From Trypanosoma brucei (Eukaryota), in contig CP000070.1 of NCBI GenBank assembly GCA_000002445.1, forward strand, positions 384,001-448,000: a stretch of DNA of 64,000 nucleotides, written 5' to 3'. Positions 7,164 to 64,000 of this stretch are shown here, piece after piece. A program made the translations under genes and the position numbers. A model generated the notes under the pieces. It had not been told where the DNA came from. It saw nothing but the letters and a program-made list of their open reading frames with translations, and ran no database searches. Within the stretch, counting starts at the first letter, position 1. Every line of letters starts with the position of its first letter.

Positions 7164-7252
7164 CGGGCACTATACATATATATTGCAGTTGAGCAAGGGT
7201 TAGAAATCATCACACAATATAGAACGAAAAGAGGAGTTGGTTGCGTATATGA

Positions 7253-11452: not shown

Positions 11453-11944
11453 AAGGCCTCCAACATCTTAAAAGTTACGACAGTGTGAGAAGGAATGTTT
11501 GATGGAAAAAGAGAACGGATGAAGTCTGAATCTACGTGTTCGCGCGGAACTGGAATGCAGCATTTTGCACTTCACATTGCCTGGCATCGTTGCCAATTTT
11601 TATTTGATTATTTTCCTGTTCCTGTTTCAGTGAATTATTCTGGATAGTTTCATTTCCCACAGTTAGAGTGTCTGATGCTGCAACATCCCGAATGTTTCCT
11701 CTGTTCTCTCTCCGAAGTTTACCACACAACCCAAAAGGACGAATATACCCTCCCATTACGCAGTCTTTGGCAGACGCGAATTCTGACGCATCTTATAGCC
11801 ACATCAGAAGGAATTAGGTGTTCGTGCGGAGGTGGGCGTCTCTCTAGTCAGCGATACCAGACGGGGACCAAAGGAGAAGAAGTAGAAAAGGAAGCAGAGC
11901 GAGCTCGTACTTCAGGGTTGGGCAAGTGAAGTGTGTACGAATAG

Positions 11945-33647: not shown

Positions 33648-33871
33648 AGTGGGAGGATTATACCTCAGGACTTTCTGTCGGGGGAGTTGGAAATGGAATA
33701 ACGTATAAAGGGGTACCAAAATGGTGACCATGCATATTTTCGGCAATATTGTTGCATGTAATGGTTGTTGCGCGAAGTCTGGGACTCATAGGTGCCTCCC
33801 AGTACACCAAACGGCTGTTAATTCTCAATATCACATACACGTTGTTCACCCCTTACTTACAACCGGTAACC

Positions 33872-33898
<27 letters not shown>
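33872..33898. repeat. (TA)n microsatellite
   Basis: ctatatatatatatatatatatatatatat in the intergenic region before EIF4E6. Confidence 0.9.
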
Positions 33899-33902
<4 letters not shown>

Positions 33903-34175
33903 GTTTGTTTGTTTGTTTATTTGTTTTTTGAAATTCTTCTCTGGTGTCCTGTGTACTTTTTTTTTCGATTCTTTTAACTTTTTTCCCTTGGATGTTCCTG
34001 GCGCACATCAGTAAAACATTAACTACTGCAGTTGGTATAATATTGTAAGCGGGGATAAAGAACCGGGAATCAAAAGAAGGTATAGGAATAATAACAACGT
34101 TGAAAATAAGGTTAACAGTAAAGAAGAAGGGTTATTTAACAGAAAGGAGATAAAAAGGAAGAAAAAGAACGTAGG

Positions 34176-44110: not shown

Positions 44111-45044
44111 CGGCGGCGCTGACGACGGTGCGTGTCTGTTTGTTGGTGTTGTTGTTGTTTGACGTATGCGACAAACGAATAACTGCAATAATCGTTTGTT
44201 TGTCAAGGATTCTGTCTGGTTCAAAATTACAAGGTCTTGGGCAACACGGTATATCAGTGGCTGATCAGCTGCGGCGCGGGGGTCCTCGTCATGTTGTTGT
44301 ATCCCCTGTTTCCTAGTTAACAGCCATCGTTGCTCACTTCACGTATCGTTTGCTGTAATTTCCAACCGGGGAGGAGTGTGTGGTGTTCCGTTAGTGGTGG
44401 TGGTCGATTTACCGGTGACTTTACCCAAACCGCTTCACATTTCGGCGTTTAGTCGGTTACGGGAAAACGTTACAGGATTTAGTGCTGTAAGATGAAGCAT
44501 CAGGGTCCTCAAGGATCCTGTAGGCACAGTCGTGATGGGCTTGCTGACCGTGTCTGTTTCGACACTGCTAAACGGCTGCCCTTACTGGGTCATTACCATG
44601 ACGTATTCCTTTTACTTGTTACAGATATATATCGTCTCAGTGAGGCTGTCACGGGGTTGTTAGTTGTAATGAGCAAGGCTTTGCGTTGGTTGATTTTTTT
44701 AGTGAGGAGTACGTGGCTTTATATATATATCTTTCATTCAGGTGATGCTTTGTCATCCTGCTTTCATCGCCAACGTTCGGTTCCTCTTTCTTTCCTTCAC
44801 TATTTTTACGCCTTGTTTCACCAGTCATACCACTTACGCATAGTTGTATTTCTCCCCAACATTATTCCCTTTCCCCCTGCTGTTACCTGTTCATCGACGA
44901 AACAGATTTCCTCCGTCTTTTTTTCCCCCTTACATGGAGGCTTTTACCGCTTTCAAGGCTGTTTTGGATCGTATTTGTTATTTGTACTGCTTTTTCCCTA
45001 TTCAATTTACTCCACTGTAGCACAGCGCGGTCCATTGATCACAT

Positions 45045-45773
45045 ATGCCCGCTAAAGCTGTTCCCGCCCCGGAGTCTGCGATCAAGCGCGCTGCCTTCAA
45101 GCAGCAGCAGACGGAGAACTTCAAGAAGGCGATCGCTGCGAACAAAGTGGCGGCGGCTGCCCTGAAGAAACTTGCGTACAGTCGTGGTCTCAAGTACTCT
45201 CGTGAGTACCGCTCCACCGAGAAGAAGCTTGCTGGCTTGCGTCGGAACGCGAGGCAGCACGGTAACTACTACCTTGAGGCAAAACCAAAGGTAGCTGTTG
45301 TCACCCGTATTCGCGGTATTGCGAAGGTGCCACCAAAGCAGCGCAAGATCCTGCAGCTTCTGAGGCTCCGTCAGATCTTCAATACTGTGTTCGTGCGGTT
45401 GAATAAACCAATGGAGAATATGCTCCGCGCAGTGGAGCCGTACATTGCGTATGGCTATCCGTCATTGAGTACGGTACGCGCGATGGTGTACAAGCGTGGG
45501 CACTTGAAGATCAACGGTCAGCGTGTGAAGATCACCGATAACCAGATGATTAAGGACAAGTACCACAACGATGATATCGTCTGTGCCGAAGACATTGTTA
45601 ACCAGATCTACGCCTGCGGTAAGCACTTCCGGACTGTGACGAATGGTTTGTGGCCCTTCAAGCTTGCGCCCCCTGCTGGTGGCATGCGGCAAAAGCGCCG
45701 TCACTTCGTCGAGGGTGGTGATTACGGCAACCGTGACACATTGATCAACCGCTTCCTCGCGCGTATGATCTAA
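45045..45773 (+). CDS. RPL7: 60S ribosomal protein L7 (uL30), copy 1 of 3
   Basis: 242 aa. The C-terminus ...FVEGGDYGNRDTLINRFLARMI and VAVVTRIRGIAKVPPKQRKILQLLRLRQIFNTVFVRLNK match eukaryotic L7/uL30. Identical to copies 2 and 3. Confidence 0.85.
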   Translation: MPAKAVPAPESAIKRAAFKQQQTENFKKAIAANKVAAAALKKLAYSRGLKYSREYRSTEKKLAGLRRNARQHGNYYLEAKPKVAVVTRIRGIAKVPPKQRKILQLLRLRQIFNTVFVRLNKPMENMLRAVEPYIAYGYPSLSTVRAMVYKRGHLKINGQRVKITDNQMIKDKYHNDDIVCAEDIVNQIYACGKHFRTVTNGLWPFKLAPPAGGMRQKRRHFVEGGDYGNRDTLINRFLARMI

Positions 45774-46057
45774 ACTCAGCGGCGACGGTGGAGCACTGTG
45801 CATTATTACTTTGAAATAGTATTTTGTTTTTCGTTTGATGTGGGTGTGTTGTGTGTACTATTTTTCCACGGCTACCTATTCATCTTTCTCGGTTCTACTT
45901 AGGTGGAGCTTTAAATTTCACTTCAATAAAAAATCTCTCCTGCGTACTTTACGAAAGTTTTGTTACCAACAGAACACGAGTATCTAATTTTCTCCGTTCT
46001 GCCTTTACTTTAATGTTTATGACGGGACTCATACTGTTAGGAAAAGGTAGAGAAGTT

Positions 46058-46786
46058 ATGCCCGCTAAAGCTGTTCCCGCCCCGGAGTCTGCGATCAAGC
46101 GCGCTGCCTTCAAGCAGCAGCAGACGGAGAACTTCAAGAAGGCGATCGCTGCGAACAAAGTGGCGGCGGCTGCCCTGAAGAAACTTGCGTACAGTCGTGG
46201 TCTCAAGTACTCTCGTGAGTACCGCTCCACCGAGAAGAAGCTTGCTGGCTTGCGTCGGAACGCGAGGCAGCACGGTAACTACTACCTTGAGGCAAAACCA
46301 AAGGTAGCTGTTGTCACCCGTATTCGCGGTATTGCGAAGGTGCCACCAAAGCAGCGCAAGATCCTGCAGCTTCTGAGGCTCCGTCAGATCTTCAATACTG
46401 TGTTCGTGCGGTTGAATAAACCAATGGAGAATATGCTCCGCGCAGTGGAGCCGTACATTGCGTATGGCTATCCGTCATTGAGTACGGTACGCGCGATGGT
46501 GTACAAGCGTGGGCACTTGAAGATCAACGGTCAGCGTGTGAAGATCACCGATAACCAGATGATTAAGGACAAGTACCACAACGATGATATCGTCTGTGCC
46601 GAAGACATTGTTAACCAGATCTACGCCTGCGGTAAGCACTTCCGGACTGTGACGAATGGTTTGTGGCCCTTCAAGCTTGCGCCCCCTGCTGGTGGCATGC
46701 GGCAAAAGCGCCGTCACTTCGTCGAGGGTGGTGATTACGGCAACCGTGACACATTGATCAACCGCTTCCTCGCGCGTATGATCTAA
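46058..46786 (+). CDS. RPL7: 60S ribosomal protein L7 (uL30), copy 2 of 3
   Basis: Identical CDS 1013 bp downstream of copy 1. The tracked ORF 45851 extends upstream from a non-ATG start through the intergenic sequence. Confidence 0.85.
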   Translation: MPAKAVPAPESAIKRAAFKQQQTENFKKAIAANKVAAAALKKLAYSRGLKYSREYRSTEKKLAGLRRNARQHGNYYLEAKPKVAVVTRIRGIAKVPPKQRKILQLLRLRQIFNTVFVRLNKPMENMLRAVEPYIAYGYPSLSTVRAMVYKRGHLKINGQRVKITDNQMIKDKYHNDDIVCAEDIVNQIYACGKHFRTVTNGLWPFKLAPPAGGMRQKRRHFVEGGDYGNRDTLINRFLARMI

Positions 46787-47070
46787 ACTCAGCGGCGACG
46801 GTGGAGCACTGTGCATTATTACTTTGAAATAGTATTTTGTTTTTCGTTTGATGTGGGTGTGTTGTGTGTACTATTTTTCCACGGCTACCTATTCATCTTT
46901 CTCGGTTCTACTTAGGTGGAGCTTTAAATTTCACTTCAATAAAAAATCTCTCCTGCGTACTTTACGAAAGTTTTGTTACCAACAGAACACGAGTATCTAA
47001 TTTTCTCCGTTCTGCCTTTACTTTAATGTTTATGACGGGACTCATACTGTTAGGAAAAGGTAGAGAAGTT

Positions 47071-47799
47071 ATGCCCGCTAAAGCTGTTCCCGCCCCGGAG
47101 TCTGCGATCAAGCGCGCTGCCTTCAAGCAGCAGCAGACGGAGAACTTCAAGAAGGCGATCGCTGCGAACAAAGTGGCGGCGGCTGCCCTGAAGAAACTTG
47201 CGTACAGTCGTGGTCTCAAGTACTCTCGTGAGTACCGCTCCACCGAGAAGAAGCTTGCTGGCTTGCGTCGGAACGCGAGGCAGCACGGTAACTACTACCT
47301 TGAGGCAAAACCAAAGGTAGCTGTTGTCACCCGTATTCGCGGTATTGCGAAGGTGCCACCAAAGCAGCGCAAGATCCTGCAGCTTCTGAGGCTCCGTCAG
47401 ATCTTCAATACTGTGTTCGTGCGGTTGAATAAACCAATGGAGAATATGCTCCGCGCAGTGGAGCCGTACATTGCGTATGGCTATCCGTCATTGAGTACGG
47501 TACGCGCGATGGTGTACAAGCGTGGGCACTTGAAGATCAACGGTCAGCGTGTGAAGATCACCGATAACCAGATGATTAAGGACAAGTACCACAACGATGA
47601 TATCGTCTGTGCCGAAGACATTGTTAACCAGATCTACGCCTGCGGTAAGCACTTCCGGACTGTGACGAATGGTTTGTGGCCCTTCAAGCTTGCGCCCCCT
47701 GCTGGTGGCATGCGGCAAAAGCGCCGTCACTTCGTCGAGGGTGGTGATTACGGCAACCGTGACACATTGATCAACCGCTTCCTCGCGCGTATGATCTAA
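47071..47799 (+). CDS. RPL7: 60S ribosomal protein L7 (uL30), copy 3 of 3
   Basis: Identical CDS a further 1013 bp downstream. The 3' flank diverges immediately after the stop codon. Confidence 0.85.
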   Translation: MPAKAVPAPESAIKRAAFKQQQTENFKKAIAANKVAAAALKKLAYSRGLKYSREYRSTEKKLAGLRRNARQHGNYYLEAKPKVAVVTRIRGIAKVPPKQRKILQLLRLRQIFNTVFVRLNKPMENMLRAVEPYIAYGYPSLSTVRAMVYKRGHLKINGQRVKITDNQMIKDKYHNDDIVCAEDIVNQIYACGKHFRTVTNGLWPFKLAPPAGGMRQKRRHFVEGGDYGNRDTLINRFLARMI

Positions 47800-48874
47800 A
47801 CTCTGTGGCGACAACTTCTTGAGGAAAACCTTTCCATCCTATTTAGTTTTCCTTTCTGATTTTTTGTGTTTGTTGATTTTACTATTTTTTACTGCCTGTT
47901 GAGGCTGCTTGCGTTCACTGTTTCCCAACCACTGCTGGCAGTTTGCTTTGTCATGTGGTGGTGGGGGGAAGGTGCTAGTTACTCGTCTCATCGGGTGATA
48001 TTTGTTTTGCCTATGATATTTGTATCTATGCTCTTTTCCCTAATTGTTCTTTTTTTTTTTTTGTATTCTAAAATGGGTCTTAGTTGTGTTTACCAGGTTG
48101 TCCATATCGTTTAGTACAAGTGGGTGCGGAGGTACTGTGTTTACTTATTAGCGGGACATTTCATGAAACGGAAAGAAGGCAATTGGAGGGTGAATGTCGT
48201 TGGGTTCTACGTGAGGGCACGGGCAGTCGTGGTTTAAACATTTTTTGTGGTCGCTGTGCAATCCCGATTCACGACATTCCTCACCACTATGATTAACTTG
48301 TAATGAAGTACTTCGTTGCAATGAGGGGGTGAAGGGTAGGTGAAGGGTATGTACTTTCACTAAGTTTCTAGCGGGGCAAACGGAAGGCGGTGTCTGCGAT
48401 CAGCCAACGGGATCTTGCGTGTGTTACAACTGAAAGTGCGCCATCCTGTGTATCTTGCGATAGGGCGGTGACGGTTATTGGTTCCCTTTGATTTTCAGTT
48501 CAAGCCATCACCAGTCACGCCTTGCGCCACAGTGCCTACGGCATTTGGTGTGTTGTTAAATTACAGGATTATTGGTTCCCCGCTCGTTATATCAGCAATG
48601 AATGCAGGAGAATGGGAGAAAGGGTCGAAGACAATGTTTTTTGTTTTCAACACAAGGGAGGAGACTCAGTATTAGGTGGTATACTTTCTTCATACGCCAA
48701 ATCTGTTCTAGACGTACGAGAGTGAGTTTGTCTCTCTTTCATTTACTTCATCGCTTCCCCACCCATTCAACTTCCTCCCCCGTTTTACCTACAACCGGGT
48801 GAGGAAGAAAAAATTGTAAAAGGTCTCCATTGTCATATAGCAGGAACTAAAACGTTTCCATTTCAGCAAAGGTG

Positions 48875-52818: not shown

Positions 52819-53526
52819 ATGTCACTTGTGGAGGTTTTGCCGAACTACTTCACTCTTTCGAAGGACTCACCCCTTCGGAAGAAGTTCGAAAAGGTGTACA
52901 AATGGTATTCACCAGCCTTTTCGCCTCACGATGTTCCGCGCTTTGCTGAGGTGGGGAATATCACCGAAAATCCTGAAGTGATGCGCGGCATTCGAGACTT
53001 CTTCGTTGACCGCTATAAAAATCTTCAGCAGCCCATCACCCACATTTTGGGGTTTGACTCTCGTGGTTTTCTGCTTGGACCAATGATTGCAGTGGAGCTG
53101 AACGTGCCTTTTGTACTGATAAGGAAGGCGAACAAAATCGCTGGTGTTATCATTAAGAGTGAACCTTACACGAAGGAATACGCCGCAGAATCAGAGGAGT
53201 GCATGACCGTTCGCTTCGGGAGCTTTGACAAGAATTCTCGCGTTGTTCTCATCGATGATGTGATTGCCACTGGTGGTACCATGCTTGCGGGAGTGCAACT
53301 TGTTGATGCATGTGGTGCCACTCTTGTGGAAGTGGCGGGTATTCTCGGCCTCACTTTCCTCAAAGGAACGCAACCCGCCCATACATTTGCGGGAGGTCGG
53401 TACAGTAATGTTCCATTTGTCACTCTTGTGGATGAAACTGTCCTTTCTGATGAAAACTGTGGCGATCCTCTTCATCACAAGGGATCCCGCATAATAAGCT
53501 GCGCCGAGGCAAAAAAATTGATTTAA
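52819..53526 (+). CDS. APRT1: adenine phosphoribosyltransferase (type I PRTase), cytosolic-type paralog
   Basis: PRPP-binding motif VVLIDDVIATGGTMLAG and the APRT-like GFDSRGFLLGPMIAVELNVPFVLIRK. The C-terminus -KKLI has no PTS1. The tracked start 52813 is TTG; ATG at 52819. Confidence 0.75.
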   Translation: MSLVEVLPNYFTLSKDSPLRKKFEKVYKWYSPAFSPHDVPRFAEVGNITENPEVMRGIRDFFVDRYKNLQQPITHILGFDSRGFLLGPMIAVELNVPFVLIRKANKIAGVIIKSEPYTKEYAAESEECMTVRFGSFDKNSRVVLIDDVIATGGTMLAGVQLVDACGATLVEVAGILGLTFLKGTQPAHTFAGGRYSNVPFVTLVDETVLSDENCGDPLHHKGSRIISCAEAKKLI

Positions 53527-54273
53527 GGAATATATTGGGCAGGTAACGCCCGTAACGGATCCTTAATGATGTTACAGGTATTATTTTTAATTTGGGTAAC
53601 AGAAGAATATATATATATATATAAAAGAGAGATAATCGAGGCAGTGACATTATTTATATGTGTGATATCCAACAGCGTTGGTGGTCCACACGGAAAAAGA
53701 CAGCGGAGAAGAATCAGTGAAAGGAAGAGACATGGCGTTGAGTGCTTTTTTTTTTTCCTTCTTACGGGATGGGTATTTAAAAGGTGGTGCCTCATTTTTT
53801 GCGAGCAGTAGGCCTTGTTTTGTGTCAAGTGCAGCATTTAGCATATTAGTTTACACATGACTACGGGGCGTTCTGGGAATAAGAATTCTCCTCGGGTTGG
53901 CACACCTGTAAATTTATATGTCGTACCTCCCCTCTATTGGCGTATCAATTTTTTTTCTCATTGCCTCCTGCATCCCTTCCCGCGTGTTCTTTTTTTTTTT
54001 TGCTGCTTTTCGGTATTTCAAACCTCTCTAAATTATGGGGGAGGGGGGCTGTTGCTTGTTTCACCCCCACGTGTGCAACGCTTTCCGTGTGTTACTCATC
54101 GCCACTTCAACAATTACTATCCACCTCCGTTTCGTTTTGCCCTGCTACTTCATTTCGCTTACCACAATTTATTCAATTAAGTTTCTTACTAATAGTAGTA
54201 GTAGTTGAGCACCCGCTTGTTTTGTTGCCGTTTTTCAAGGTTAATCACAAGTCTTTATCTGTTATCCATAACT

Positions 54274-54966
54274 ATGTCACAGTATGATGCGATTCTGACT
54301 GAGCGTCACCCACATCACTTCACGCTGGCAGATACCCATCCGCTAGCCAAGGAACTGCATGCCAATATCTTTGGAGAATCGGATTTAACACATGCCAATT
54401 GTGCTCACGTATACGACATCAGCAGTCTTACCGAAAAGCCGGCGCTCTTTCGAAAGGTCATCGAGTTCCTCAAATGCCGCTATGAAACGATGGGTGACAC
54501 CGGTCCAACACACATCATTGGAGTGGAATCACGCGGTTACATCATTGGGGCCCCTCTGGCAGTGGCGCTTGGTATTCCATTCGTAACCGCCCGTGTGACG
54601 AAACGGTTTCCCTCTTCATTTGTACCTGAAGGTGACGATTTGAAGTATTTGCCGATGTCACGCTCTATCCGAAATGACAGCATTCCTCCGCGTGCGCGTG
54701 TGTTGATTGTTGACGATTTCATTGGTACGGGAAGCACAATGCTTGCCGCACTGCGACTTGCAGATATTGTGGCTGCTCAAGTAGTAGAAGTTCTTACCGT
54801 CTGTGATGTGGCCTCGTTGGGGGGTATCAAAATTATACGTGAATCCGATGATGAAATGTTCAAAGAGACGCCTATCTTTACTTTGATTCACTTCAAACTC
54901 TCCCCGCGGGAGGCTGAAGAGCAACTTGAATTCGTTAACTCATACATTACCAGGTCACGACTGTGA
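54274..54966 (+). CDS. APRT2: adenine phosphoribosyltransferase paralog with a C-terminal PTS1-like -SRL (glycosomal-type)
   Basis: VLIVDDFIGTGSTMLAAL PRTase motif and IGVESRGYIIGAPLAVALGIPFVTAR. It ends ...YITRSRL. It is strongly diverged from the upstream paralog. The tracked start 54205 is TTG; the first ATG is 54274 (MSQYDAILTE...). Confidence 0.7.
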   Translation: MSQYDAILTERHPHHFTLADTHPLAKELHANIFGESDLTHANCAHVYDISSLTEKPALFRKVIEFLKCRYETMGDTGPTHIIGVESRGYIIGAPLAVALGIPFVTARVTKRFPSSFVPEGDDLKYLPMSRSIRNDSIPPRARVLIVDDFIGTGSTMLAALRLADIVAAQVVEVLTVCDVASLGGIKIIRESDDEMFKETPIFTLIHFKLSPREAEEQLEFVNSYITRSRL

Positions 54967-56282
54967 GATATTTCCCCTCCCCTTTTTATACCTCAGTTGT
55001 GGCATGATATCTTCATGTGAGTGTTCATCTGCTCTATGTGGAATTGAGAGAGAGTCACTGGAATAAGAGCAGCTGCGGAAAACAATTTTTTTTTTTTTGA
55101 AAAACAGTTAAAGTAAGGAAACAAGCGGCAGTGACGTGGAGGAGCCTAAAGTGCGCATGTTCCCTCATGCGGTCGGCACCTCTCATAATTGCTACCAATG
55201 GTGTGTTCTCCTTCGTATCGGTGTTATTTCAGATAGCGGGATAATCACATGGAATAAAACTGAACAGCAAGCAGTGAAGTGAAGGGGAGGGGAGGCGTTG
55301 GTAAAGAAACGTGTTTTAATGACAGGTGCGGGTAGGGAAGTGACAATTTTCCAAACATAAATGCTGATTGCAATATATTCCTCATTTTCCCCATACACGA
55401 AAAAGGTTACTAAGGGAAAACGAAAAAAGAAAAAGAAGGATGAAGCACAATCTTACGGGAAGTAGTTACTCATCTTCTGCGTGTCCGCGTATTTGGAAAG
55501 CATATTAAAACAACAGGTATGTGTGAGGGTGTTTGTTTTTTTTTTTTCGTATGTTCGTGAAGCGAATGGAAACGTGATGATGTTCACCTTATCTTCAGTT
55601 CGTTAGCAAGAGAGGGGAAGGGAAGCATCCGCTTCTATTTTCTGCTCCTCTTTTTCCCTTTTCATATATATATATATTATTATTATTATTATTATCATTT
55701 TTATTATCGTTATCTTCTTTCTGTGTTTGTCTGTTGTTGTGACCATTCCGAAGGCTGGCGGTGCAACCTCGTCCTTTTTCCCCCTCCCCCCCCTCACGTC
55801 ATACCTCTGGATACATAACGTTTTCCAATTTAGAAAAGAATTATTGTGTGGACGCCACGTCATCCTCCAGCTTTTTCTTTTTTCCTCCTCTACAGACTCT
55901 TCTTTCGGACCATATGACTGTTACCGGCAACTACCAACTTAAAAAAATATGTGCGGACGACTACGTTAGTTCTTTCGTAGTTTGACGAGTTTTTCTTTTT
56001 CCTTTTTTTTTTGTTGTTGCGGTGGATGTTTATCTCACTCTGACCATGTGTAGTACTTTTGAGTTAAGCGGAGGACTTCAGACAGCGACATAATACCGCT
56101 GCGCTTGTGTCTGTATGTTTGATTAAGAAAATACAAGTAAAAGGTTGTTTGTATTTTTGTCTTCGTGCGCATGCGTTATGCACTGTTCTTTTATTCTTTC
56201 CTTCTGTCCTCTTTGCTTTGTATGCTTCTTTTTTTATTTTCTGCTGATCGCCATTGGGAGCCCACGCGCTTTAACGAGGGGA

Positions 56283-56287
<5 letters not shown>

Positions 56288-56326
<39 letters not shown>
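56288..56326. repeat. (TA)n microsatellite, about 19 units
   Basis: aatatatatatat...atatattt in the long intergenic region 54967-56541. Confidence 0.9.
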
Positions 56327-56329
<3 letters not shown>

Positions 56330-56541
56330 GTGGGGAGTAAAGGGAGCTCAAAAGGGAAGTGACCGCATCGCCACCCGCTTTGTATTTCTTTTTGTTGGTC
56401 AGACTCCAGTAAAAGGGAAGGAACCGATAAAAGTAACAGACCTAACTGCTATAACATTTACTCAGTTAAGCAAGGGGGGGGAAGCATTAGAAAGGTGTTT
56501 TATCTCACACGTCCAACGCCTCGCTGCACGGCGGTTCGAAT

Positions 56542-57252
56542 ATGTCGTCTTTAATGTCGGCAAATAATAGTGGTCTCGTCTTCGCTATGGCACTGACCAC
56601 CAACCAAACCTTCTTTCTAACGTACCACATGGGCAGCTACGCTAATAACGCCGTCATGCTTAGCAGCCGGAAACCTATGTTGATGAGAGACGTATTCTTG
56701 ACGAAATCTTCAAGTTTCTTCCCTAACCCCCTTTCGTGCGTTTATGTTCACAGTCCGTTGGATGCTGTGTTAAACAGTTTATTAGCATGGTTTTTAGTGA
56801 GACCAATTATCGAAATCATTGGTTGGAGGTCCGGAGTGGCGATATACTTCGGTTCAGGTTTCTTCAGCAGTTTCGCTTACATATTCAGTAGCCAACTCGG
56901 TACAGGGAGGACGAACACACCGTTTGATTGTGCAGACACGTCAAATGGTGCCTTTTCGGGTTTTGCGACCCTCAGCCTCGTATTGCCAAAATGTTATATA
57001 CCAACAAGCAAGCGCATCCCTACAAGCTACCTTGGTGTCCCATACCTCATCAAATGCTTCTACGACGAATACGTTGCTCCCCATTACGTTGACAAAAGAG
57101 AAAAGGGTGCTATCGAGCTGCGAAACTGGGGATTTGTTGGGGGAGTATTCTTCGTAATGATCTATACATCATTGGTACTTCGAACTAAACATGATATGAC
57201 AACAATGAGGACATTTTGGCGCAACATGGGCATTACTACGCGAAAAAAATAA
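56542..57252 (+). CDS. hypothetical small membrane protein (236 aa)
   Basis: ATG-initiated ORF with several hydrophobic segments. A WR...GSGFF stretch is weakly reminiscent of the rhomboid/derlin GxSG motif, but there is no supporting His. Low confidence. Confidence 0.35.
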   Translation: MSSLMSANNSGLVFAMALTTNQTFFLTYHMGSYANNAVMLSSRKPMLMRDVFLTKSSSFFPNPLSCVYVHSPLDAVLNSLLAWFLVRPIIEIIGWRSGVAIYFGSGFFSSFAYIFSSQLGTGRTNTPFDCADTSNGAFSGFATLSLVLPKCYIPTSKRIPTSYLGVPYLIKCFYDEYVAPHYVDKREKGAIELRNWGFVGGVFFVMIYTSLVLRTKHDMTTMRTFWRNMGITTRKK

Positions 57253-57390
57253 TGCAGAACACACATACTGTGTAACAACAACTTTTATTTTACTTACAAA
57301 AAAAACTCACATTCCCTACTCTGCAAGGAACGAAAAAAAATACCATAATTTTCAACGACAATTAAACGTCACCGTCAAACTGTTTTACCA

Positions 57391-58439
57391 AACCGCAATG
57401 CACTCTTGTAAACGAACACACAGGTAGGCTAGGCGAGGTTTTTCACAAAAGGAATATATATATATATATATAAGGCTACGCCTAAATCCCTTTGACCTCA
57501 TGGGTTGCCAACGTATGGGGACCTATCCCATTGCGGGTGTGGAAGATGTGCGCCGTGCTGTCGTTTTGGAGGTGAACGATTTTTGTATTTCCGTGAAGCT
57601 GCCTCCTGCAAGTGAATTAAGGAAAGATTCCCGGTATGGCATTAACCTTGATGCCCAGGTTGTCGGTTTCAATGCAAGGCGCGTTCGCGACGAATATGAG
57701 CTTGCCTTTCGTATGTATCTTACTGGAAACGATCTTGAGAAGTACGCCCGGAGGTGCACGGTTGGGTACCTTTTTCTTCCATCCGGGGAGGAGCATTACC
57801 TCGGCCCGCTGATATTTGGTAGTGACTCGGTGTGCTCGGCCATGCTTGTGGGGGAAGTGCCATCAAATGTAGAGGTGTGCTTTGAGTGCCTTTCTCTTCC
57901 CAGAGGTATGACGGCTCTGATGCCTGCCTGCTTTCGCCTTGCAGAGATCATGGCGACCATTCTTGATGCTGACGTGCACAATGCATCAGTGGCCTCCTCG
58001 CATATGCAAAACTTGGTGAAACTGTTCCCTTCTTATGGTGACTGCATGATGCAGTTTGATAACTGGACCAAATTTGTGGAGTGCGCGGAAGCTCAACTGG
58101 GACTGTGGTGCACAAGAAGATACACCGAAGACGAAATCAAAAAATATGGATTTCGTAATGTTGCACATTATGAGGAGCCACGTCTTGTCTCAAAACGATT
58201 TATTTACGACTATGTTGATGGGGATGTTGGGAAAGATGCGTTGCATCATGAAAAGTTTGAGGAGTTGAAGAAGCTTGTTGCCGCTGCATTGAACTCTTGC
58301 ACTGACTGCCGGCGTCCTTCTCATCTGTGTAAGAAACACCTCACGGAGATATCAAGCATGCCTTGCGTTCTCCAGCTGAATCCCCCAAACTACTTGGCAC
58401 CCGTGACTGCTGAGGGAATCGTCTGGAGGATTGTTCTCC
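57391..58439 (+). repeat. segmental direct repeat, copy A (at least 1049 bp)
   Basis: Begins at aaccgcaatgcactcttgtaaacgaacacacaggtaggctaggcgagg.... It is identical to 62952-64000 at offset 5561, to the window edge. Confidence 0.9.
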
Positions 58440-58507
58440 AAGACCCCCTCCATCCCCTCCGTGTTGTCTGGGAACGCAAAGTCACGCGGGTTCCAGATTT
58501 TCGCTAA
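57500..58507 (+). CDS. hypothetical protein (335 aa), gene lying in segmental duplication copy A
   Basis: ATG-initiated ORF beginning MGCQRMG. Its first 313 codons are duplicated exactly at 63061-64000. Confidence 0.5.
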   Translation: MGCQRMGTYPIAGVEDVRRAVVLEVNDFCISVKLPPASELRKDSRYGINLDAQVVGFNARRVRDEYELAFRMYLTGNDLEKYARRCTVGYLFLPSGEEHYLGPLIFGSDSVCSAMLVGEVPSNVEVCFECLSLPRGMTALMPACFRLAEIMATILDADVHNASVASSHMQNLVKLFPSYGDCMMQFDNWTKFVECAEAQLGLWCTRRYTEDEIKKYGFRNVAHYEEPRLVSKRFIYDYVDGDVGKDALHHEKFEELKKLVAAALNSCTDCRRPSHLCKKHLTEISSMPCVLQLNPPNYLAPVTAEGIVWRIVLQDPLHPLRVVWERKVTRVPDFR

Positions 58508-59288
58508 TCCCAAATGCTTCCGTACGGCATTCATTATTTTACACCATCATGTAAGCTGTCAGGCAGCAATAGGGTCCTTAACACAATACATTTCCCTCCT
58601 CTTTCGCGTTTGACTTTCAATTCCTCAATGTTTTTGGTTGTCGCTGTTCTGTTTTTAACATTTTGCATGACTAATGTCTTTTGTTCATGTTTGTTCGTTT
58701 CCCTCTACGTCTGCTTTTGATGTTCCGTTATTTTACTTTTACGTTTGCTTTTTTTTCTTTACTGTTTGCTCCACCCCGTACTCCTTACGATTGGTAACAT
58801 CCTGATTCAAATGTCGGCTGCAGGTGATAGGGGAGCGAGCTTATGAAGACGTGGAAGTACTGCTTCTCCGTCATTTTCCCATCTTTTGTGTTTCAGCTCT
58901 TGTATGCGCCACCGAAGCACATTGTTAGATGCTACACATGTGCATGTAGAAGGACTTCCTTTTACGCACCTTTCTTTTTCTTTTCCATAATTATACTTTT
59001 GTGCTGTCTCCTACTGCTTTTCTTACCTTATGTATTTTTTTTACTCTTTGGTTACACACTCGTTACTTATCTTTTCCTTATATCCTTCCTAACATTATGG
59101 TGCTCCCATGGTTTTCCTCTTCTTTCCTGTGCGGTGGGCCCAGTTGCTGCGTCTATCCACTGCATTGCTGACCACTATCCACTCTCCCGTGCACTTATTA
59201 TGTTGTTTTCTCTTTTTTACTTTACTGAGCGCAACCGAATTGTGGGGGACATAGTAGAAGGCAAGACCACTTGACCGCCCTAAGTGCG

Positions 59289-59576
59289 ATGCCTGGGCGA
59301 AGAGGGAAGCAGCGTGTGAAGCGGAAGAAGTCGAAACGTCAGAGGCCTTCCGGGATGGAGCGTGTGCTTATTGAAAGCATACACGTGCGGAAGCATAAGG
59401 AGCGTGACATTCTGAAGCATCACATCCCCCCTTCAGTAAAACCGAGAGTGAAGAAAGTGTCGTTGGATGCGACATTGCCCATGTTTAATGCCATCTCTAA
59501 AAACGCCAACCGGAGTACCTCTTCAGTGACCATGGCGAAGGGAACCAAATCGAACGGTACTGTGGTAGGATGCTGA
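59289..59576 (+). CDS. small highly basic protein (95 aa), hypothetical
   Basis: MPGRRGKQRVKRKKSKRQRPSGMERVLIESIHVRKHKERDILKHH.... The tracked start is TTG; the first ATG is 59289. The coding status is uncertain. Confidence 0.25.
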   Translation: MPGRRGKQRVKRKKSKRQRPSGMERVLIESIHVRKHKERDILKHHIPPSVKPRVKKVSLDATLPMFNAISKNANRSTSSVTMAKGTKSNGTVVGC

Positions 59577-60220
59577 AGTTCCAACTGTTAGTGCACATGC
59601 GCGCTGTGTGGTAAACCCCTGCAAACTATTATACGCGGTTGCGTTGGGAGTACGACTCGTGCATGCGTGTGTGTAATTATTGGGGCTAGTGCTTTGAGAC
59701 GTACTATTGACAGGGCACCTTTACTGTGGAGATGTGCGAGGTGGACGTAATGTAGGTAAGGGTTATCGAGGTGTACCTCATCACTGTGATGCCTCTGTCA
59801 ACAGGTCCCTGCGTTCGTGGCCGCGTGGTGTATGAGTTGCTTCCTACTGTGTCGTGGGGAACTGTGAGCCACACCCTCTGAATTCTCAGCGTGTCCTCTG
59901 CACCTTTATTACGCCTGGGTGGGCCAGCTCTCTCTTCCCCCCGGGTCATGCATGGTGATATCTCTCCTGGCTCCGCATCCACTGTTAGTAGATGGTGGCG
60001 CCTTTAACGTTTGTATACTTCAGTGGTTCTCCTGTTTCAGCGCTTGGTACCGTCCTCCAGTTTCCCAGGAGTGAAGCCCACTATGGGTGTGCCACTGATT
60101 CGTGTCTTTTCTCTCTTTTCTGTCTCGCAACACTTTTGTGTAGTTAGCCCGCCACACTTGACCTTTGTTGAGGAAGGGGAGTGGGGGAACGAACCCACAG
60201 CGGATTAGACGAGACAACGG

Positions 60221-61321
60221 ATGAGTAGAGATGCGACACCCTACGAGGGCGAGGGTGATGATGACGATTATGACGGGGCAATGAGGTGTATTCTCGTGGA
60301 AAAGATACGGCGACACCGTGCTCTCGAGCGTGAGGGAAGCGTTAGGGTTATAACACGGAAAGGTGTACCACCCCCGACACTAGGGGAGCTGCGCGCGATA
60401 GCTGACAGGCGGTCGAGACATGAAGACCTGTTGAGGTTGCAGCGGCGTCTGGATGGGGTAGAGAGACGGATGGGGTTGTGGCGTGACTATCTTTCCTACG
60501 AGCCCCCACCCTTTATGTCCTCCAGCGTTCCTGCTAACGCTTCTGAGACTGGAATCCTTGAGGGACGCGCAGCACTTCTTTCACCACTTTCCACACTGTT
60601 TCGCATTTTGCTCCGCGAGAATCGCGCGCGCGAAAGGCTACGGTTGCTGCGAGCGCGGCCCCCCCTCCCCAAGTCGCAAACGCCATCGCTAGCTAGTGCT
60701 CGACGGATGTCATTGGAGGTGGCTCGTTTTGTGGGAGACGATATATTTGTTCCCCCTGGGGATGGGTGCCGTTCTGCAATAACTTCCGAGCAGTTGCTTG
60801 TAACACCCGCGTATGAGGTCGAACGCCTTCGAAACCCGCTGGTGTTCTTGGCTCGCGAGTACCGTATGGAGCGACTCCCTGAATTCTCACTAAACCCAGC
60901 AAAGTCTCCGGATACTGGTCACAGCTCTGTGGTGAGGAAGGATTGCGGTGCCTCGTCTGCAGTCACATTATCAGACTTCCGCCAGCCACCTGTGATGTTA
61001 GAGGCATTTAATATACCTTGCGGCATTTACGATGTGGGTCGTAGAGTCCACCTCATTCAGGGGTATGAGCCGCTGTACAGCAGTGATGGGCTTGGGTCTC
61101 TTGACTCTCTTAGTAAGGCCGTGAAGTGTAGGCGGGATGGACCGCAACGGGGCGATACTGCCTTCATTGACGGGCGGCTGTCTCAAAGTTTGTGGTGTTC
61201 TGGGACTCCAGCGAAACTACGAGGGCCGCTCCAGGAGGACTCGCTAAGCGGAAGCGACGACGACGAGGTCTCCCCAGCCTTCTGCGCGGATGTCTCATGG
61301 CTTCCCAAGTTCCCCGAGTAA
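60221..61321 (+). CDS. hypothetical protein (366 aa)
   Basis: ATG-initiated ORF with an acidic N-terminus (EGEGDDDDYDG) and an Arg-rich middle. No domain recognised. Confidence 0.45.
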   Translation: MSRDATPYEGEGDDDDYDGAMRCILVEKIRRHRALEREGSVRVITRKGVPPPTLGELRAIADRRSRHEDLLRLQRRLDGVERRMGLWRDYLSYEPPPFMSSSVPANASETGILEGRAALLSPLSTLFRILLRENRARERLRLLRARPPLPKSQTPSLASARRMSLEVARFVGDDIFVPPGDGCRSAITSEQLLVTPAYEVERLRNPLVFLAREYRMERLPEFSLNPAKSPDTGHSSVVRKDCGASSAVTLSDFRQPPVMLEAFNIPCGIYDVGRRVHLIQGYEPLYSSDGLGSLDSLSKAVKCRRDGPQRGDTAFIDGRLSQSLWCSGTPAKLRGPLQEDSLSGSDDDEVSPAFCADVSWLPKFPE

Positions 61322-61616
61322 CAAGATTGCGATAGTGAGGGAATAGTAGAGGATATTCTCTTACTGTGCACTGGGTGTATCATTCTGTCACCCGATGTAA
61401 TGTAATATATGGCGCAAAAGAATGTGCTTTTTGGTGAAGTGGATGCCTCCGGCACTGTTTCATTCGAATGGCTGCGTTTATTTTCTGTGTTGTCACTGCT
61501 CCGCCAACCTCTTGCACGCATCTGAGAACCCACTTGTTGATGCCTCTTTTCCCTTTACTTTTGTGTGCTCCCACCCTACGACCCCGTGTCACGTGACGCA
61601 GTTTTCACCGCCGACG

Positions 61617-62498
61617 ATGGTTGGCGAGAGGACCGTCTCTGGTGGTTGGAAACCTGATAGTTCGGCACCTGTGTGTGACAGCTGCGATGTCACGTTCACT
61701 GTTTACAGGAGACGCCACCACTGCCGTTGTTGCGGCGGCGTGTTTTGCAACTCATGCTCGAATACGTATGTGAGCATCCCAGCATTGCATGAAATGAAAC
61801 CACAGCGCGTGTGCCGCGCCTGTGCAACCGCGTTGTCTGGTGCCACAGATGCCTCTGCCACTGCCGGTTCGGCGGCAACCGACCCCGTGTCCGGCGGTTC
61901 CTTTCCCTCGATTGCGGAAGAGGAGGAGGAGGGAGGTGATGGCATTGTGTCTTCAGGCAGTAGTCGCCTCGACGACGATAGCGGTGATGTTGACGACAGT
62001 TCGTCTCATAGTGGGGACGTTTCGTCTGCCGTCGCGGCTGTGTATTCTTCCGTTGAGGAGGGACCACGCACCAGTAGCATGACCTTCATTGCGGCTTTGC
62101 AAGAGAATCTCAGACACTCGGATGATCCGGGTGTCGTGACAATCCTTATGTATGCTTCGGCGACGAGGCAGCAACTAATTCTTGTTACTGTGAGTGATGG
62201 AGAAACAATGTCGATGCTTGCAGAGCGACTAGCTGACACCTACCTCCGACTGGAGAACGGACCGTTCAAGGCCGCAAGTCTTACCGACCGGGAGAATGCG
62301 CTGAAGAGGTTGCGCTTCTTTAGTGAATCAGCTGCTGTGGATAACGGCGCTCAGGCAGTGTCCGTGGCGCTGCAGCATCGGCGCCTGGTTTTGACCGGTT
62401 GCTCGCTTTCCGAACTGCAGTGTCAGAGCGCGAAACCCCTCGTCCATGATTTTTTCTGCAGTAACATCAGTGCAGGGGAGTGTGGGGAGTGGGAATGA
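61617..62498 (+). CDS. FYVE zinc-finger domain protein
   Basis: WKPDSSAPVCDSCDVTFTVYRRRHHCRCCGGVFCNSCS...RVCRAC matches the FYVE consensus (WxxD, RRHHCR, CxxC pairs). The 5' part of tracked ORF 61422 is a pyrimidine-rich UTR; the first ATG after the polyY tract and acgcag is 61617. Confidence 0.6.
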   Translation: MVGERTVSGGWKPDSSAPVCDSCDVTFTVYRRRHHCRCCGGVFCNSCSNTYVSIPALHEMKPQRVCRACATALSGATDASATAGSAATDPVSGGSFPSIAEEEEEGGDGIVSSGSSRLDDDSGDVDDSSSHSGDVSSAVAAVYSSVEEGPRTSSMTFIAALQENLRHSDDPGVVTILMYASATRQQLILVTVSDGETMSMLAERLADTYLRLENGPFKAASLTDRENALKRLRFFSESAAVDNGAQAVSVALQHRRLVLTGCSLSELQCQSAKPLVHDFFCSNISAGECGEWE

Positions 62499-62951
62499 AG
62501 AAAGTGACTTTGTGCAATTATCGTTGCTGCAAATCACCCTTTTTAAGGTCTGCGTATGGACTATGCGTATTCCCAGGTTGGGTATGTAGTTACTTGAAGG
62601 AGGATAACCCCGTCTTCTAACCTAACCGGTGCCTTCCTTGCCGCATTCCGGCTTCTGGCGCCATCAGTCGCTGCTTGGTTTCATTTCCAACCACTCAATG
62701 ACTCATGGGGGATCTCTTTTACTTCACCTTTTTCCCCTTCTCACACTGTCGATGTGACAGTGTCTTTTCAGTGTTCTGCGTAATCCCTTGTTCATTTTCC
62801 TTTTCCCTCTTTGCTGCTAGAAGTTGCGCATTATGTGCGTTGTTGTGGTGCCAGTAGCACGTGTGTACTGATACACGCTCCTTTATGTGCGTGTGTGCGA
62901 ATCCGAGTAGGTACTGTGTTCTCTCCTCCTTTCTCGTACAACAAATTGTAT

Positions 62952-64000
62952 AACCGCAATGCACTCTTGTAAACGAACACACAGGTAGGCTAGGCGAGGT
63001 TTTTCACAAAAGGAATATATATATATATATATAAGGCTACGCCTAAATCCCTTTGACCTCATGGGTTGCCAACGTATGGGGACCTATCCCATTGCGGGTG
63101 TGGAAGATGTGCGCCGTGCTGTCGTTTTGGAGGTGAACGATTTTTGTATTTCCGTGAAGCTGCCTCCTGCAAGTGAATTAAGGAAAGATTCCCGGTATGG
63201 CATTAACCTTGATGCCCAGGTTGTCGGTTTCAATGCAAGGCGCGTTCGCGACGAATATGAGCTTGCCTTTCGTATGTATCTTACTGGAAACGATCTTGAG
63301 AAGTACGCCCGGAGGTGCACGGTTGGGTACCTTTTTCTTCCATCCGGGGAGGAGCATTACCTCGGCCCGCTGATATTTGGTAGTGACTCGGTGTGCTCGG
63401 CCATGCTTGTGGGGGAAGTGCCATCAAATGTAGAGGTGTGCTTTGAGTGCCTTTCTCTTCCCAGAGGTATGACGGCTCTGATGCCTGCCTGCTTTCGCCT
63501 TGCAGAGATCATGGCGACCATTCTTGATGCTGACGTGCACAATGCATCAGTGGCCTCCTCGCATATGCAAAACTTGGTGAAACTGTTCCCTTCTTATGGT
63601 GACTGCATGATGCAGTTTGATAACTGGACCAAATTTGTGGAGTGCGCGGAAGCTCAACTGGGACTGTGGTGCACAAGAAGATACACCGAAGACGAAATCA
63701 AAAAATATGGATTTCGTAATGTTGCACATTATGAGGAGCCACGTCTTGTCTCAAAACGATTTATTTACGACTATGTTGATGGGGATGTTGGGAAAGATGC
63801 GTTGCATCATGAAAAGTTTGAGGAGTTGAAGAAGCTTGTTGCCGCTGCATTGAACTCTTGCACTGACTGCCGGCGTCCTTCTCATCTGTGTAAGAAACAC
63901 CTCACGGAGATATCAAGCATGCCTTGCGTTCTCCAGCTGAATCCCCCAAACTACTTGGCACCCGTGACTGCTGAGGGAATCGTCTGGAGGATTGTTCTCC
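62952..64000 (+). repeat. segmental direct repeat, copy B (runs to window end)
   Basis: Identical to 57391-58439, including the (TA)n microsatellite and the start of the 335-aa gene. Confidence 0.9.
63061..64000 (+). CDS. second copy of the 57500-58507 gene (3' end beyond window)
   Basis: Sequence identical to 57500-58439. The frame is open to the window edge. Confidence 0.5.
   Translation, partial: MGCQRMGTYPIAGVEDVRRAVVLEVNDFCISVKLPPASELRKDSRYGINLDAQVVGFNARRVRDEYELAFRMYLTGNDLEKYARRCTVGYLFLPSGEEHYLGPLIFGSDSVCSAMLVGEVPSNVEVCFECLSLPRGMTALMPACFRLAEIMATILDADVHNASVASSHMQNLVKLFPSYGDCMMQFDNWTKFVECAEAQLGLWCTRRYTEDEIKKYGFRNVAHYEEPRLVSKRFIYDYVDGDVGKDALHHEKFEELKKLVAAALNSCTDCRRPSHLCKKHLTEISSMPCVLQLNPPNYLAPVTAEGIVWRIVL

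What the first reader, a model, noticed from the sequence alone, without database searches (positions are those of the whole stretch)
57391..64000. Exact segmental duplication of at least 1049 bp in direct orientation, separated by 5561 bp and bracketing four genes
Sequence 57391-58439 is identical, as far as the window extends, to 62952-64000. It includes a (TA)n tract, the 5' UTR and the first 313 codons of the MGC-initiated 335-aa gene. Between the copies lie the small basic ORF, a 366-aa orphan and the FYVE protein. Perfect identity indicates a very recent duplication, active gene conversion, or an assembly artefact. Direct repeats of this size are substrates for unequal crossing-over that would delete or amplify the intervening block. 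Whether copy B is a full gene copy cannot be seen, because the window ends.
Basis: seen in the sequence. Interest (0 to 1): 0.55.

Follow-up and report, generated by a model that had tools for sequence, protein, structure and literature searches.

The report
Known tandem four-gene duplication, Trypanosoma brucei
The exact 1,049-base repeat is the start of the second copy of a 5,561-base, four-gene block that lies twice head to tail on chromosome 7 of Trypanosoma brucei; the duplication is real but ordinary, and it is already annotated and catalogued.

Summary
Window 57391-58439 equals 62952-64000 with no mismatch, and the left edge is abrupt. The window matches T. b. brucei TREU927 chromosome 7, 384,001-448,000, to the base against three published tandem-array coordinates.

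The repeat is not a pair of 1-kb elements bracketing unique genes. It is the beginning of unit 2 of a head-to-tail duplication of a 5,561-bp unit. The unit holds a 335-aa conserved hypothetical protein, a 95-aa basic protein, a 366-aa conserved protein and a 293-aa FYVE zinc-finger protein.

GenBank holds each of the four proteins as two identical TREU927 entries in consecutive order (AAZ12246-49 and AAZ12250-53). Jackson 2007 lists the locus as tandem array 54 with two repeats. The independent T. b. gambiense assembly has the same two units and the same junction.

Each unit starts with a 64-nt motif plus (TA)n, which I call R, and one further R follows the last unit. Copies within a genome differ by 0-0.08%, whereas the two haplotype groups differ by 0.8%. 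This points to concerted evolution, or to loss and re-duplication, by unequal crossing-over.

Verdict: already known, low interest.

The parts
57391..62951 (+). Unit 1 of the tandem duplication (5,561 bp, four genes)
   Evidence: The whole unit is repeated in T. b. gambiense (L001 4309-9883 and 9884-15208). The coordinates of Jackson 2007 array 54 fit unit 1 plus one period exactly.
62952..64000 (+). First 1,049 bp of unit 2, cut off by the end of the window
   Evidence: 100% identical to 57391-58439. The rest of unit 2 is inferred from identical GenBank protein pairs and from the published array end, 452059, which equals window-equivalent 68059, that is 62498 + 5561.
57391..57472 (+). R1: the 64-nt boundary motif AACCGCAATG...AAAAGGAA (57391-57454) plus (TA)9 (57455-57472)
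   Evidence: R occurs in the window only at the two unit starts. In relatives it is also found once more after the last unit, directly before the ATG of the downstream 288-aa gene.
62952..63033 (+). R2: the junction copy of the boundary motif (64 nt plus (TA)9)
   Evidence: Identical to R1. Its left flank is the region downstream of the FYVE gene, which contains a polypyrimidine tract.
62919..62984 (+). A 17-nt polypyrimidine tract (62919-62935), with the first downstream AG at 62983-62984 inside R2; this AG is the predicted trans-splice acceptor for copy 2 of the 335-aa gene
   Evidence: Read from the sequence. That it acts as a splice acceptor is inferred from the general rule for trypanosome trans-splicing signals and was not tested. 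Upstream of copy 1 (57253-57390) there is no comparable tract.
57500..58507 (+). 335-aa conserved kinetoplastid hypothetical protein, copy 1 (Tb927.7.1810 by inference from the gene numbering)
63061..64000 (+). 335-aa gene, copy 2, codons 1-313 (Tb927.7.1850 by inference)
   Evidence: Identical to copy 1. AAZ12246 and AAZ12250 have the same sequence.
59289..59576 (+). 95-aa basic protein (288-nt CDS)
   Evidence: ORF. Orthologues in T. vivax (60% identity) and T. grayi (75% identity). The 288-nt size and the start at 443289 match Jackson 2007 Table S3. AAZ12247 and AAZ12251 are identical.
60221..61321 (+). 366-aa conserved hypothetical protein (1101-nt CDS)
   Evidence: ORF. Orthologues of about 40% identity in T. 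vivax and T. grayi, in the same gene order. AAZ12248 and AAZ12252 are identical.
61617..62498 (+). FYVE zinc-finger protein, 293 aa (the ORF is open from 61422); Tb927.7.1840, with its twin Tb927.7.1880
   Evidence: Pfam FYVE, E = 1.4e-21. Orthologues align from residue 66 of the 358-aa ORF. The 882-nt size is in Jackson's table. Tb927.7.1840 and Tb927.7.1880 are both named 'zinc finger protein'. AAZ12249 and AAZ12253 are identical.

Best explanation
The repeat is the head of the second unit of a two-copy, head-to-tail duplication of a 5,561-bp four-gene unit. The duplication lies inside one + strand gene cluster on T. brucei chromosome 7, between the rhomboid-like gene Tb927.7.1800 and the 288-aa gene that precedes a protein kinase and glycine dehydrogenase.

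Each unit begins with a 64-nt motif plus a (TA)n tract (R). One more R follows the last unit, so the layout is R-unit-R-unit-R. This layout is what unequal crossing-over between two R copies flanking a single unit would produce. Once two 5.5-kb units exist, mis-paired recombination between them can add a unit, remove a unit or copy one unit over the other. That would keep the copies within one genome almost identical while lineages drift apart.

Because trypanosome genes have no promoters of their own, the immediate effect is a doubled dose of the four genes.

Shown here: the exact repeat, the full two-unit structure, the R layout, and the much higher identity within a genome than between haplotype groups. 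Inferred: that R was the original crossover site, that homogenisation is ongoing, and that R carries the splice acceptor.
For: Exact repeat with an abrupt left edge.

Identity of the source:
- The RPL7 array (45045-47799), the APRT pair (52819-54966) and the 95-aa CDS start (59289) equal Jackson 2007 Table S3 coordinates minus 384,000.
- The published end of array 54 (452059) equals the FYVE stop plus 5561.
- Support.

Two complete units:
- Four identical protein pairs with consecutive accessions, AAZ12246-53.
- Tb927.7.1840 and Tb927.7.1880 are both zinc-finger proteins.
- Exactly eight gene IDs lie between Tb927.7.1800 (rhomboid-like) and Tb927.7.1890. This rests on gene order in the related loci and on Tb927.7.1910 being GCC-P.

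Independent assembly:
- In DAL972, L001 1-12792 is gap-free and spans unit 1, the junction and 2.9 kb of unit 2.
- Three R copies lie at 4309, 9884 and 15209, with (TA)15, (TA)13 and (TA)8.
- Support.

Concerted pattern:
- Over 4,746 shared columns, 34 sites have both DAL972 copies sharing one state against TREU927 and OVI. Only 4 sites distinguish the two DAL972 copies.
- Pairwise differences are 0.08% within the genome and 0.8% between groups.
- The TREU927 copies show 0 differences in 1049 nt, where TREU927 and DAL972 differ at 5 sites.

Distal R as a separate locus:
- The A57G change is shared by DAL972 R3 and the distal R of IVM-t1.
- The junction R carries the proximal state at that position.
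- Support.

Outgroups: T. vivax and T. grayi carry the same gene order with the block once, as assembled.

Literature: unequal crossing-over and gene conversion are the documented homogenising forces in T. brucei tandem arrays (PMC1855330).
Against: - Unit 2 of the source genome lies mostly outside the window, so its nucleotide identity beyond 1049 nt is inferred from protein identity and coordinates.
- A state with a single unit flanked by R is seen only in the two T. equiperdum assemblies. Both are unreliable for repeat counts. OVI has one RPL7 copy where TREU927 has three. IVM-t1 rests on MiSeq data plus 7,508 PacBio reads and was built into chromosomes against TREU927.
- The single-copy state in the outgroups carries the same caveat.
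- DAL972 contigs were ordered against TREU927, and that paper itself says assembled repeat numbers can be arbitrary. Unit 2 of DAL972 also contains 100 N and 455 nt of unrelated sequence.
- Near-identity of assembled paralogues can be inflated when an assembler merges reads from both copies.
- The role of R as the original crossover site is an inference from the layout, not an observed event.
Confidence: 0.88

Rival explanations
1. The duplication arose separately and recently in the TREU927-like and the DAL972-like lineages, each time by crossing-over between the same flanking R copies. This contrasts with one old duplication kept uniform by gene conversion.
For: Recombination through R would recreate the same junction each time, so a shared junction does not prove shared ancestry. 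In DAL972 the two copies and the IVM-t1 unit form a star, each with about 2 private changes. That fits a duplication or re-duplication about as young as that split. One-unit assemblies exist in both haplotype groups.
Against: The one-unit assemblies are unreliable. A cycle of loss and re-duplication and full-length gene conversion leave the same pattern, so the data here cannot separate them. This is a variant of the best explanation rather than a contradiction of it.
Confidence: 0.3
2. The first duplication came from a break or template switch at the (TA)n tracts, such as microsatellite-mediated or replication-based joining. Under this view the 64-nt part of R upstream of unit 1 was copied there later, as spill-over of a conversion tract.
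For: The right edge of the R homology falls exactly at the (TA)n tract in every copy. The tract length varies freely, from 6 to 15 repeats. That fits a fragile, slippage-prone site.
Against: It needs an additional step to explain R1, and conversion into non-homologous sequence on the left. The distal R carries its own substitution shared across genomes, which fits an older independent R copy. There is no direct evidence for a template switch.
Confidence: 0.12
3. The second copy is an assembly artefact: the region was expanded or mis-joined in the reference.
For: The copies are perfectly identical, including microsatellite length, in TREU927. Two T. equiperdum assemblies show one unit.
Against: A gap-free DAL972 shotgun contig crosses the same junction. 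Its copies differ at 4 sites and in (TA)n length, so they are two loci and not one read set placed twice. Assemblers usually collapse exact repeats rather than invent them, as the RPL7 control shows. The duplication has stood in the curated reference annotation.
Confidence: 0.04
4. Only about 1 kb, the 335-aa gene region, is duplicated, as two dispersed direct repeats that bracket unique genes. This is the literal reading of the finding's title.
For: Within the window, only 1049 nt of the second copy can be seen.
Against: All four genes have identical twins in the TREU927 records. There are two zinc-finger gene IDs. The published end of the array is one period after the first FYVE stop. DAL972 shows the complete second unit.
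Confidence: 0.01

Closest known systems
Tandem array 54 ('Tb07.43M14.240-330') in Jackson 2007, BMC Evol Biol 7:54, Table S3 (PMC1855330)
   Same: This is the same locus: chromosome 7, repeat number 2, CDS sizes 288/1101/882 nt, and positions 443289-452059. Those positions equal window 59289 to the FYVE stop plus one period.
   Different: The table lists three CDS sizes and omits the 1008-nt (335-aa) gene that forms the visible part of the repeat here. Arrays with three or fewer copies were catalogued but not analysed there, so the R boundary motif and the comparison of variable sites are not described in that paper.
Multi-gene tandem segmental duplications of T. brucei, for example the three-gene, five-repeat segment on chromosome 9 described with the T. 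b. gambiense genome (PMC2854126)
   Same: Repeat units made of several unrelated neighbouring genes in one polycistron; copy number differs between assemblies; copies within a genome are alike.
   Different: The chromosome 9 case contains strongly diverged paralogues of surface proteins and is subspecies-specific. This block has two near-identical copies in both subspecies and encodes conserved proteins with no evident surface function.
The neighbouring RPL7 array (window 45044-47812) and other invariant dosage arrays of T. brucei
   Same: Exact head-to-tail copies in the same gene cluster that are collapsed by short-read assemblies.
   Different: The RPL7 array is a single-gene unit of 1,013 bp with three copies, and a highly expressed ribosomal protein gives an obvious reason for higher dosage. 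The four-gene unit has no evident dosage rationale.
Duplication and deletion by non-allelic homologous recombination between short flanking repeats, such as Alu- or low-copy-repeat-mediated rearrangements in mammals (from general knowledge)
   Same: There is one more boundary repeat than there are units. The junction repeat has the left flank of the distal copy and the body and right flank of the proximal copy.
   Different: R is only 64 nt plus a microsatellite and is not a known mobile element. The reciprocal single-unit allele is not verified.

Membership tests
Tandem segmental duplication / tandem gene array of T. brucei | Copies lie head to tail in direct orientation, with no unique sequence between units | tested here: met
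   Unit 2 starts at 62952, directly after the last base of unit 1, with a period of 5561. The same holds in DAL972.
Tandem segmental duplication / tandem gene array of T. brucei | At least two complete units are present | tested here: met
   This cannot be seen in the window itself. It is shown by four identical protein pairs, AAZ12246-49 and AAZ12250-53, by Jackson's coordinates and repeat number of 2, and by two units in DAL972.
Tandem segmental duplication / tandem gene array of T. brucei | The units lie within one directional (polycistronic) gene cluster | tested here: met
   All 28 ORFs of at least 220 aa in the window are on the + strand. Cumulative GC skew rises across nearly the whole window.
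Concerted evolution of tandem copies | Paralogues within a genome are more alike than orthologues between lineages | tested here: met
   34 shared fixed differences against 4 differences between paralogues over 4,746 columns. Pairwise, 0.08% against 0.8%. The TREU927 copies show 0 differences in 1049 nt.
Duplication by unequal crossing-over between short flanking repeats (NAHR) | The boundary repeat is present once more than the number of units (R-unit-R-unit-R) | tested here: met
   DAL972 has three R copies for two units. The third abuts the ATG of the 288-aa gene. The distal R is also present in OVI and IVM-t1. The third R of TREU927 lies outside the window.
Duplication by unequal crossing-over between short flanking repeats (NAHR) | The junction repeat is a hybrid of the proximal and distal repeats | tested here: inconclusive
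   The DAL972 junction R has the distal left flank and the proximal state at position 57, where the distal R has G. Only one informative site exists, and later conversion could give the same result.
Duplication by unequal crossing-over between short flanking repeats (NAHR) | A single-unit allele flanked by the repeat exists (the ancestral or reciprocal product) | tested here: inconclusive
   It is seen in the T. equiperdum OVI and IVM-t1 assemblies. Both are prone to collapsing repeats.
Transposon- or retroposon-mediated duplication (ingi/RIME/SIDER-type) | Mobile-element sequence or element-encoded ORFs at the unit boundaries; the boundary motif dispersed elsewhere | tested here: not met
   R occurs only at the unit starts in the 64-kb window and only at unit boundaries in the related loci. 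No further ORF families, RNA families or tRNAs were found in 55000-64000. The whole genome was not searched for R.
Assembly artefact | No support for the junction from an independent assembly or data set | tested here: not met
   The junction lies in a gap-free contig of the separate DAL972 shotgun assembly, with copy-specific differences. Read-level validation of TREU927 is not possible with these tools.

The most novel reading that the evidence does not exclude
R may be a small portable cassette combining a 5' UTR and a splice acceptor, shared by two unrelated genes: the 335-aa gene and the downstream 288-aa gene. It would then act as a recombination hotspot, making the four-gene block variable in copy number (one, two or more) among T. 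brucei strains. The two coding-identical copies of the 335-aa gene would also be processed differently. Copy 2 sits behind the strong polypyrimidine tract of the intergenic region between the FYVE gene and the 288-aa gene. Copy 1 sits behind a weak tract. The duplication would then rewire expression rather than simply double the dose.
Probability: 0.25. Interest if true: 0.2.

Novelty: already known. Interest (0 to 1): 0.1.

Why it matters
The main value is practical.
- Tb927.7.1810-1840 and Tb927.7.1850-1880 are indistinguishable by short reads, RNAi, qPCR or proteomics. Expression values for the twins are therefore not independent. For example, Tb927.7.1840 and Tb927.7.1880 carry near-identical values in a ribosome-profiling table.
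- A knockout has to remove four alleles.
- Tb927.7.1830 has been used as a non-regulated qPCR reference gene. Under the numbering inferred here, it has an identical twin.
- Short-read assemblies collapse this region, so copy number should not be read from them.

Biologically, the locus is one more example of how trypanosomes change gene dosage by tandem duplication and keep the copies uniform. The R layout gives a tidy, testable model for how such a block first doubled.

Tried and rejected
- The word-indexed homologue search for the 335-aa protein returned only the DAL972 copy. The exhaustive search then found 19 homologues, so the gene is not specific to T. brucei.
- Logan short-read contigs (L004-L010) stop before R, so they say nothing about the junction or copy number.
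- The T. congolense FYVE orthologue could not be located on any contig, so the closest outgroup is missing.
- I first took the single unit in T. equiperdum OVI as a true one-copy state. I rejected this after the RPL7 control showed that OVI collapses exact repeats.
- I then took the gap-free IVM-t1 locus as long-read evidence. I rejected this after reading that the assembly used only 7,508 PacBio reads plus MiSeq data and was scaffolded on the reference.
- No repeat flanking the block and no R-like sequence exist in T. vivax or T. grayi.
- There are no RNA families or tRNAs in 55000-64000.
- The 143-aa ORF at 58843-59274, which is called as a gene in DAL972, has no homologue in the outgroups and is probably spurious.
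- Jackson 2007 did not analyse this array for gene conversion, because only arrays with more than 3 copies were analysed.


Full report
**Observation**

Window 57391-58439 and 62952-64000 are identical at all 1,049 positions. Identity ends abruptly to the left of 57391/62952. The repeat finder and a blastn of the window against itself agree. They show only one other long repeat in the window, a 1,013-bp-period array at 45044-47812.

**Source**

The 335-aa protein encoded in the repeat is 99% identical to a hypothetical protein of Trypanosoma brucei gambiense DAL972. All 28 ORFs of at least 220 aa lie on the + strand. Jackson 2007 (PMC1855330), Table S3, lists three consecutive tandem arrays on chromosome 7 of T. 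b. brucei TREU927:
- Array 52, ribosomal protein L7: 3 repeats, 729-nt CDS, 429045-431799.
- Array 53, adenine phosphoribosyltransferase: 2 repeats, 436819-438966.
- Array 54, 'Tb07.43M14.240-330': 2 repeats, CDS sizes 288/1101/882 nt, 443289-452059, with an FYVE zinc finger.

Subtracting 384,000 from these coordinates gives window features to the base:
- The first RPL7 ATG at 45045 and the last RPL7 stop at 47799.
- The second APRT stop at 54966.
- The ATG of the 95-aa CDS at 59289.

The window therefore corresponds to TREU927 chromosome 7, 384,001-448,000.

**What the repeat is**

The published end of array 54, 452059, corresponds to window-equivalent 68059. That is the FYVE stop (62498) plus exactly one period of 5,561. 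The second copy is therefore complete and of the same length, at least through the last gene. Three further lines agree:
- An exact-sequence look-up shows that each of the four proteins of the unit exists as two identical TREU927 GenBank entries with consecutive numbering. These are AAZ12246/12250 (335 aa), AAZ12247/12251 (95 aa), AAZ12248/12252 (366 aa) and AAZ12249/12253 (FYVE, 293 aa).
- Papers name Tb927.7.1840 and Tb927.7.1880 as 'zinc finger protein', Tb927.7.1780 and 1790 as APRT, Tb927.7.1800 as a rhomboid-like protein and Tb927.7.1910 as the glycine cleavage P protein.
- With the gene order seen in related loci, exactly eight gene IDs remain for two four-gene units.

The 1,049 nt are thus the head of unit 2 of a head-to-tail duplication. 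They are not a separate 1-kb repeat bracketing unique genes.

**Independent support**

In the DAL972 chromosome 7 record (L001), the block is present twice: 4309-9883 and 9884-15208. L001 1-12792 has no N and spans unit 1, the junction and 2.9 kb of unit 2. The two DAL972 copies differ at four substitution sites. They also differ in microsatellite length, (TA)15 against (TA)13. They are therefore two loci, not one read set placed twice. DAL972 was assembled from its own whole-genome shotgun, but its contigs were ordered on the TREU927 reference. Its authors warn that assembled repeat numbers can be arbitrary. Unit 2 of DAL972 also contains 100 N and 455 nt of unrelated sequence in place of about 800 nt of the 366-aa gene.

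**Boundary anatomy**

Each unit starts with a 64-nt motif, AACCGCAATGCACTCTTGTAAACGAACACACAGGTAGGCTAGGCGAGGTTTTTCACAAAAGGAA, followed by (TA)n. I call this R.
- In the window, R occurs only at 57391 and 62952.
- In DAL972 a third R follows unit 2 and runs straight into the ATG of the downstream 288-aa gene.
- The same distal R is present in T. equiperdum OVI and IVM-t1.
- The layout is therefore R-unit-R-unit-R. This is what unequal crossing-over between two R copies flanking a single unit would produce.
- The distal R carries an A-to-G change at position 57 in both DAL972 and IVM-t1. The junction R has the proximal state there but the distal left flank. This is compatible with a crossover inside R, but it rests on one informative site.
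- A 17-nt polypyrimidine tract (62919-62935) lies just upstream of the junction R, and the first AG after it lies inside R (62983). The region upstream of unit 1 has no comparable tract. R probably carries the trans-splice acceptor for copy 2 of the 335-aa gene and for the 288-aa gene. This is inferred from the general rule for trypanosome splice signals and was not tested.

**Concerted pattern**

I aligned unit 1 of the window, both DAL972 copies and the OVI unit over 4,746 gap-free columns:

| Site pattern | Sites |
|---|---|
| Both DAL972 copies share a state that differs from TREU927 and OVI | 34 |
| The two DAL972 copies differ from each other | 4 |

With IVM-t1 added, two haplotype groups appear: TREU927 with OVI, and DAL972 copies 1 and 2 with IVM-t1. 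The groups differ by about 0.8%, and members within a group differ by 0.11% or less. In the window the two copies show no difference in 1,049 nt, a stretch in which TREU927 and DAL972 differ at five sites. If the duplication predated the split of the groups and the copies had evolved independently, the paralogues should differ at least as much as the groups do. Either the units are homogenised by gene conversion or by cycles of unequal crossing-over, or the block doubled separately in each lineage through the same R copies. The data here do not separate these two readings. Both are forms of the process described for T. brucei arrays in Jackson 2007.

**Copy number elsewhere**

T. equiperdum OVI (L002) and IVM-t1 (L020) show one unit flanked by R. 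Neither is reliable evidence for a true single copy:
- OVI has one RPL7 gene where TREU927 has three and DAL972 two.
- IVM-t1 was built from MiSeq contigs plus only 7,508 PacBio reads, and its chromosomes were constructed against TREU927.

T. vivax (L011) and T. grayi (L013) have the gene order APRT, APRT, rhomboid-like, [335-like, 95-like, 366-like, FYVE], 288-like, kinase. The block occurs once, with no flanking repeat. The same caveat about collapsed assemblies applies to them. T. congolense could not be retrieved.

**Gene content**

All four genes have syntenic orthologues. Identities are 31-34% for the 335-aa protein, 60-75% for the 95-aa protein, about 40% for the 366-aa protein and 42-47% for FYVE. 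The 366-aa gene is therefore not an orphan.
- FYVE orthologues begin at residue 66 of the 358-aa ORF. This matches the annotated 293-aa product.
- The 143-aa ORF at 58843-59274 has no homologue and is probably spurious.
- The 335-aa protein has 19 detectable homologues, the identified ones being trypanosome proteins. Its MGC N-terminus is not conserved and it has no Pfam match.
- No RNA families or tRNAs lie in 55000-64000.

**Verdict**

The feature is a standard trypanosome tandem segmental duplication that is already annotated and catalogued. The only additions here are the R boundary layout, the comparison of variable sites across four assemblies, and the warning that short-read assemblies collapse this locus. 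Interest is low.

Noticed in passing
window 45044-47812: A tandem array of three ribosomal protein L7 genes with a period of 1,013 bp. Identity at one-period offset is exact from 45044 for 1,747 nt (through 46790 / 47803), with 2 mismatches near the 3' end of the last copy. This is array 52 of Jackson 2007. The T. equiperdum OVI assembly and the Logan short-read contigs show it as a single copy, and DAL972 shows two.
   Followed up: yes
window 52819-54966: A diverged tandem pair of adenine phosphoribosyltransferase genes (Tb927.7.1780 and Tb927.7.1790; array 53 of Jackson 2007). No nucleotide-level repeat is detectable between them, in contrast to the two exact arrays nearby.
   Followed up: partly
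L001 12793-13347 (T. b. gambiense DAL972 chromosome 7): Unit 2 of the DAL972 assembly has a 100-N gap followed by 455 nt that match nothing in the window or elsewhere in the locus. This stretch replaces about 800 nt of the 366-aa gene, which is therefore not called in copy 2. It is probably a flaw at a contig end in the draft assembly.
   Followed up: partly
window 61422-61616: The FYVE ORF is open for 65 codons upstream of the start used in the TREU927 and T. equiperdum annotations. Orthologues in T. vivax and T. grayi align only from residue 66. DAL972 annotates the long 358-aa form.
   Followed up: yes
window 58843-59274: A hydrophobic, low-complexity 143-aa ORF lies between the 335-aa and 95-aa genes. 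It is called as a gene in DAL972 but has no homologue in T. vivax or T. grayi, so it is probably not a gene.
   Followed up: partly
window 56542-57252: The gene just upstream of the duplication is a 236-aa protein with a weak Pfam Rhomboid match. It is Tb927.7.1800, which a 2026 preprint reports as a rhomboid-like partner of the mitochondrial Oxa1 insertases.
   Followed up: partly
window 7099-7180, 33857-33931, 56279-56362: Long (CA)n, (TA)n and (GTTT)n microsatellites lie in intergenic regions. Together with the (TA)n tract at the R boundary, they show that TA tracts are common between genes here. The tract at the R boundary varies from 6 to 15 repeats among assemblies.
   Followed up: no
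L002, L020, L001 versus window 57391-62951: Across the unit, T. equiperdum OVI groups with TREU927 (0.1% different) and T. equiperdum IVM-t1 groups with T. b. gambiense DAL972 (0.07-0.08%). The two groups differ by 0.8%. The two 'T. equiperdum' strains therefore carry different haplotypes at this locus.
   Followed up: partly
[not shown]
   Followed up: partly
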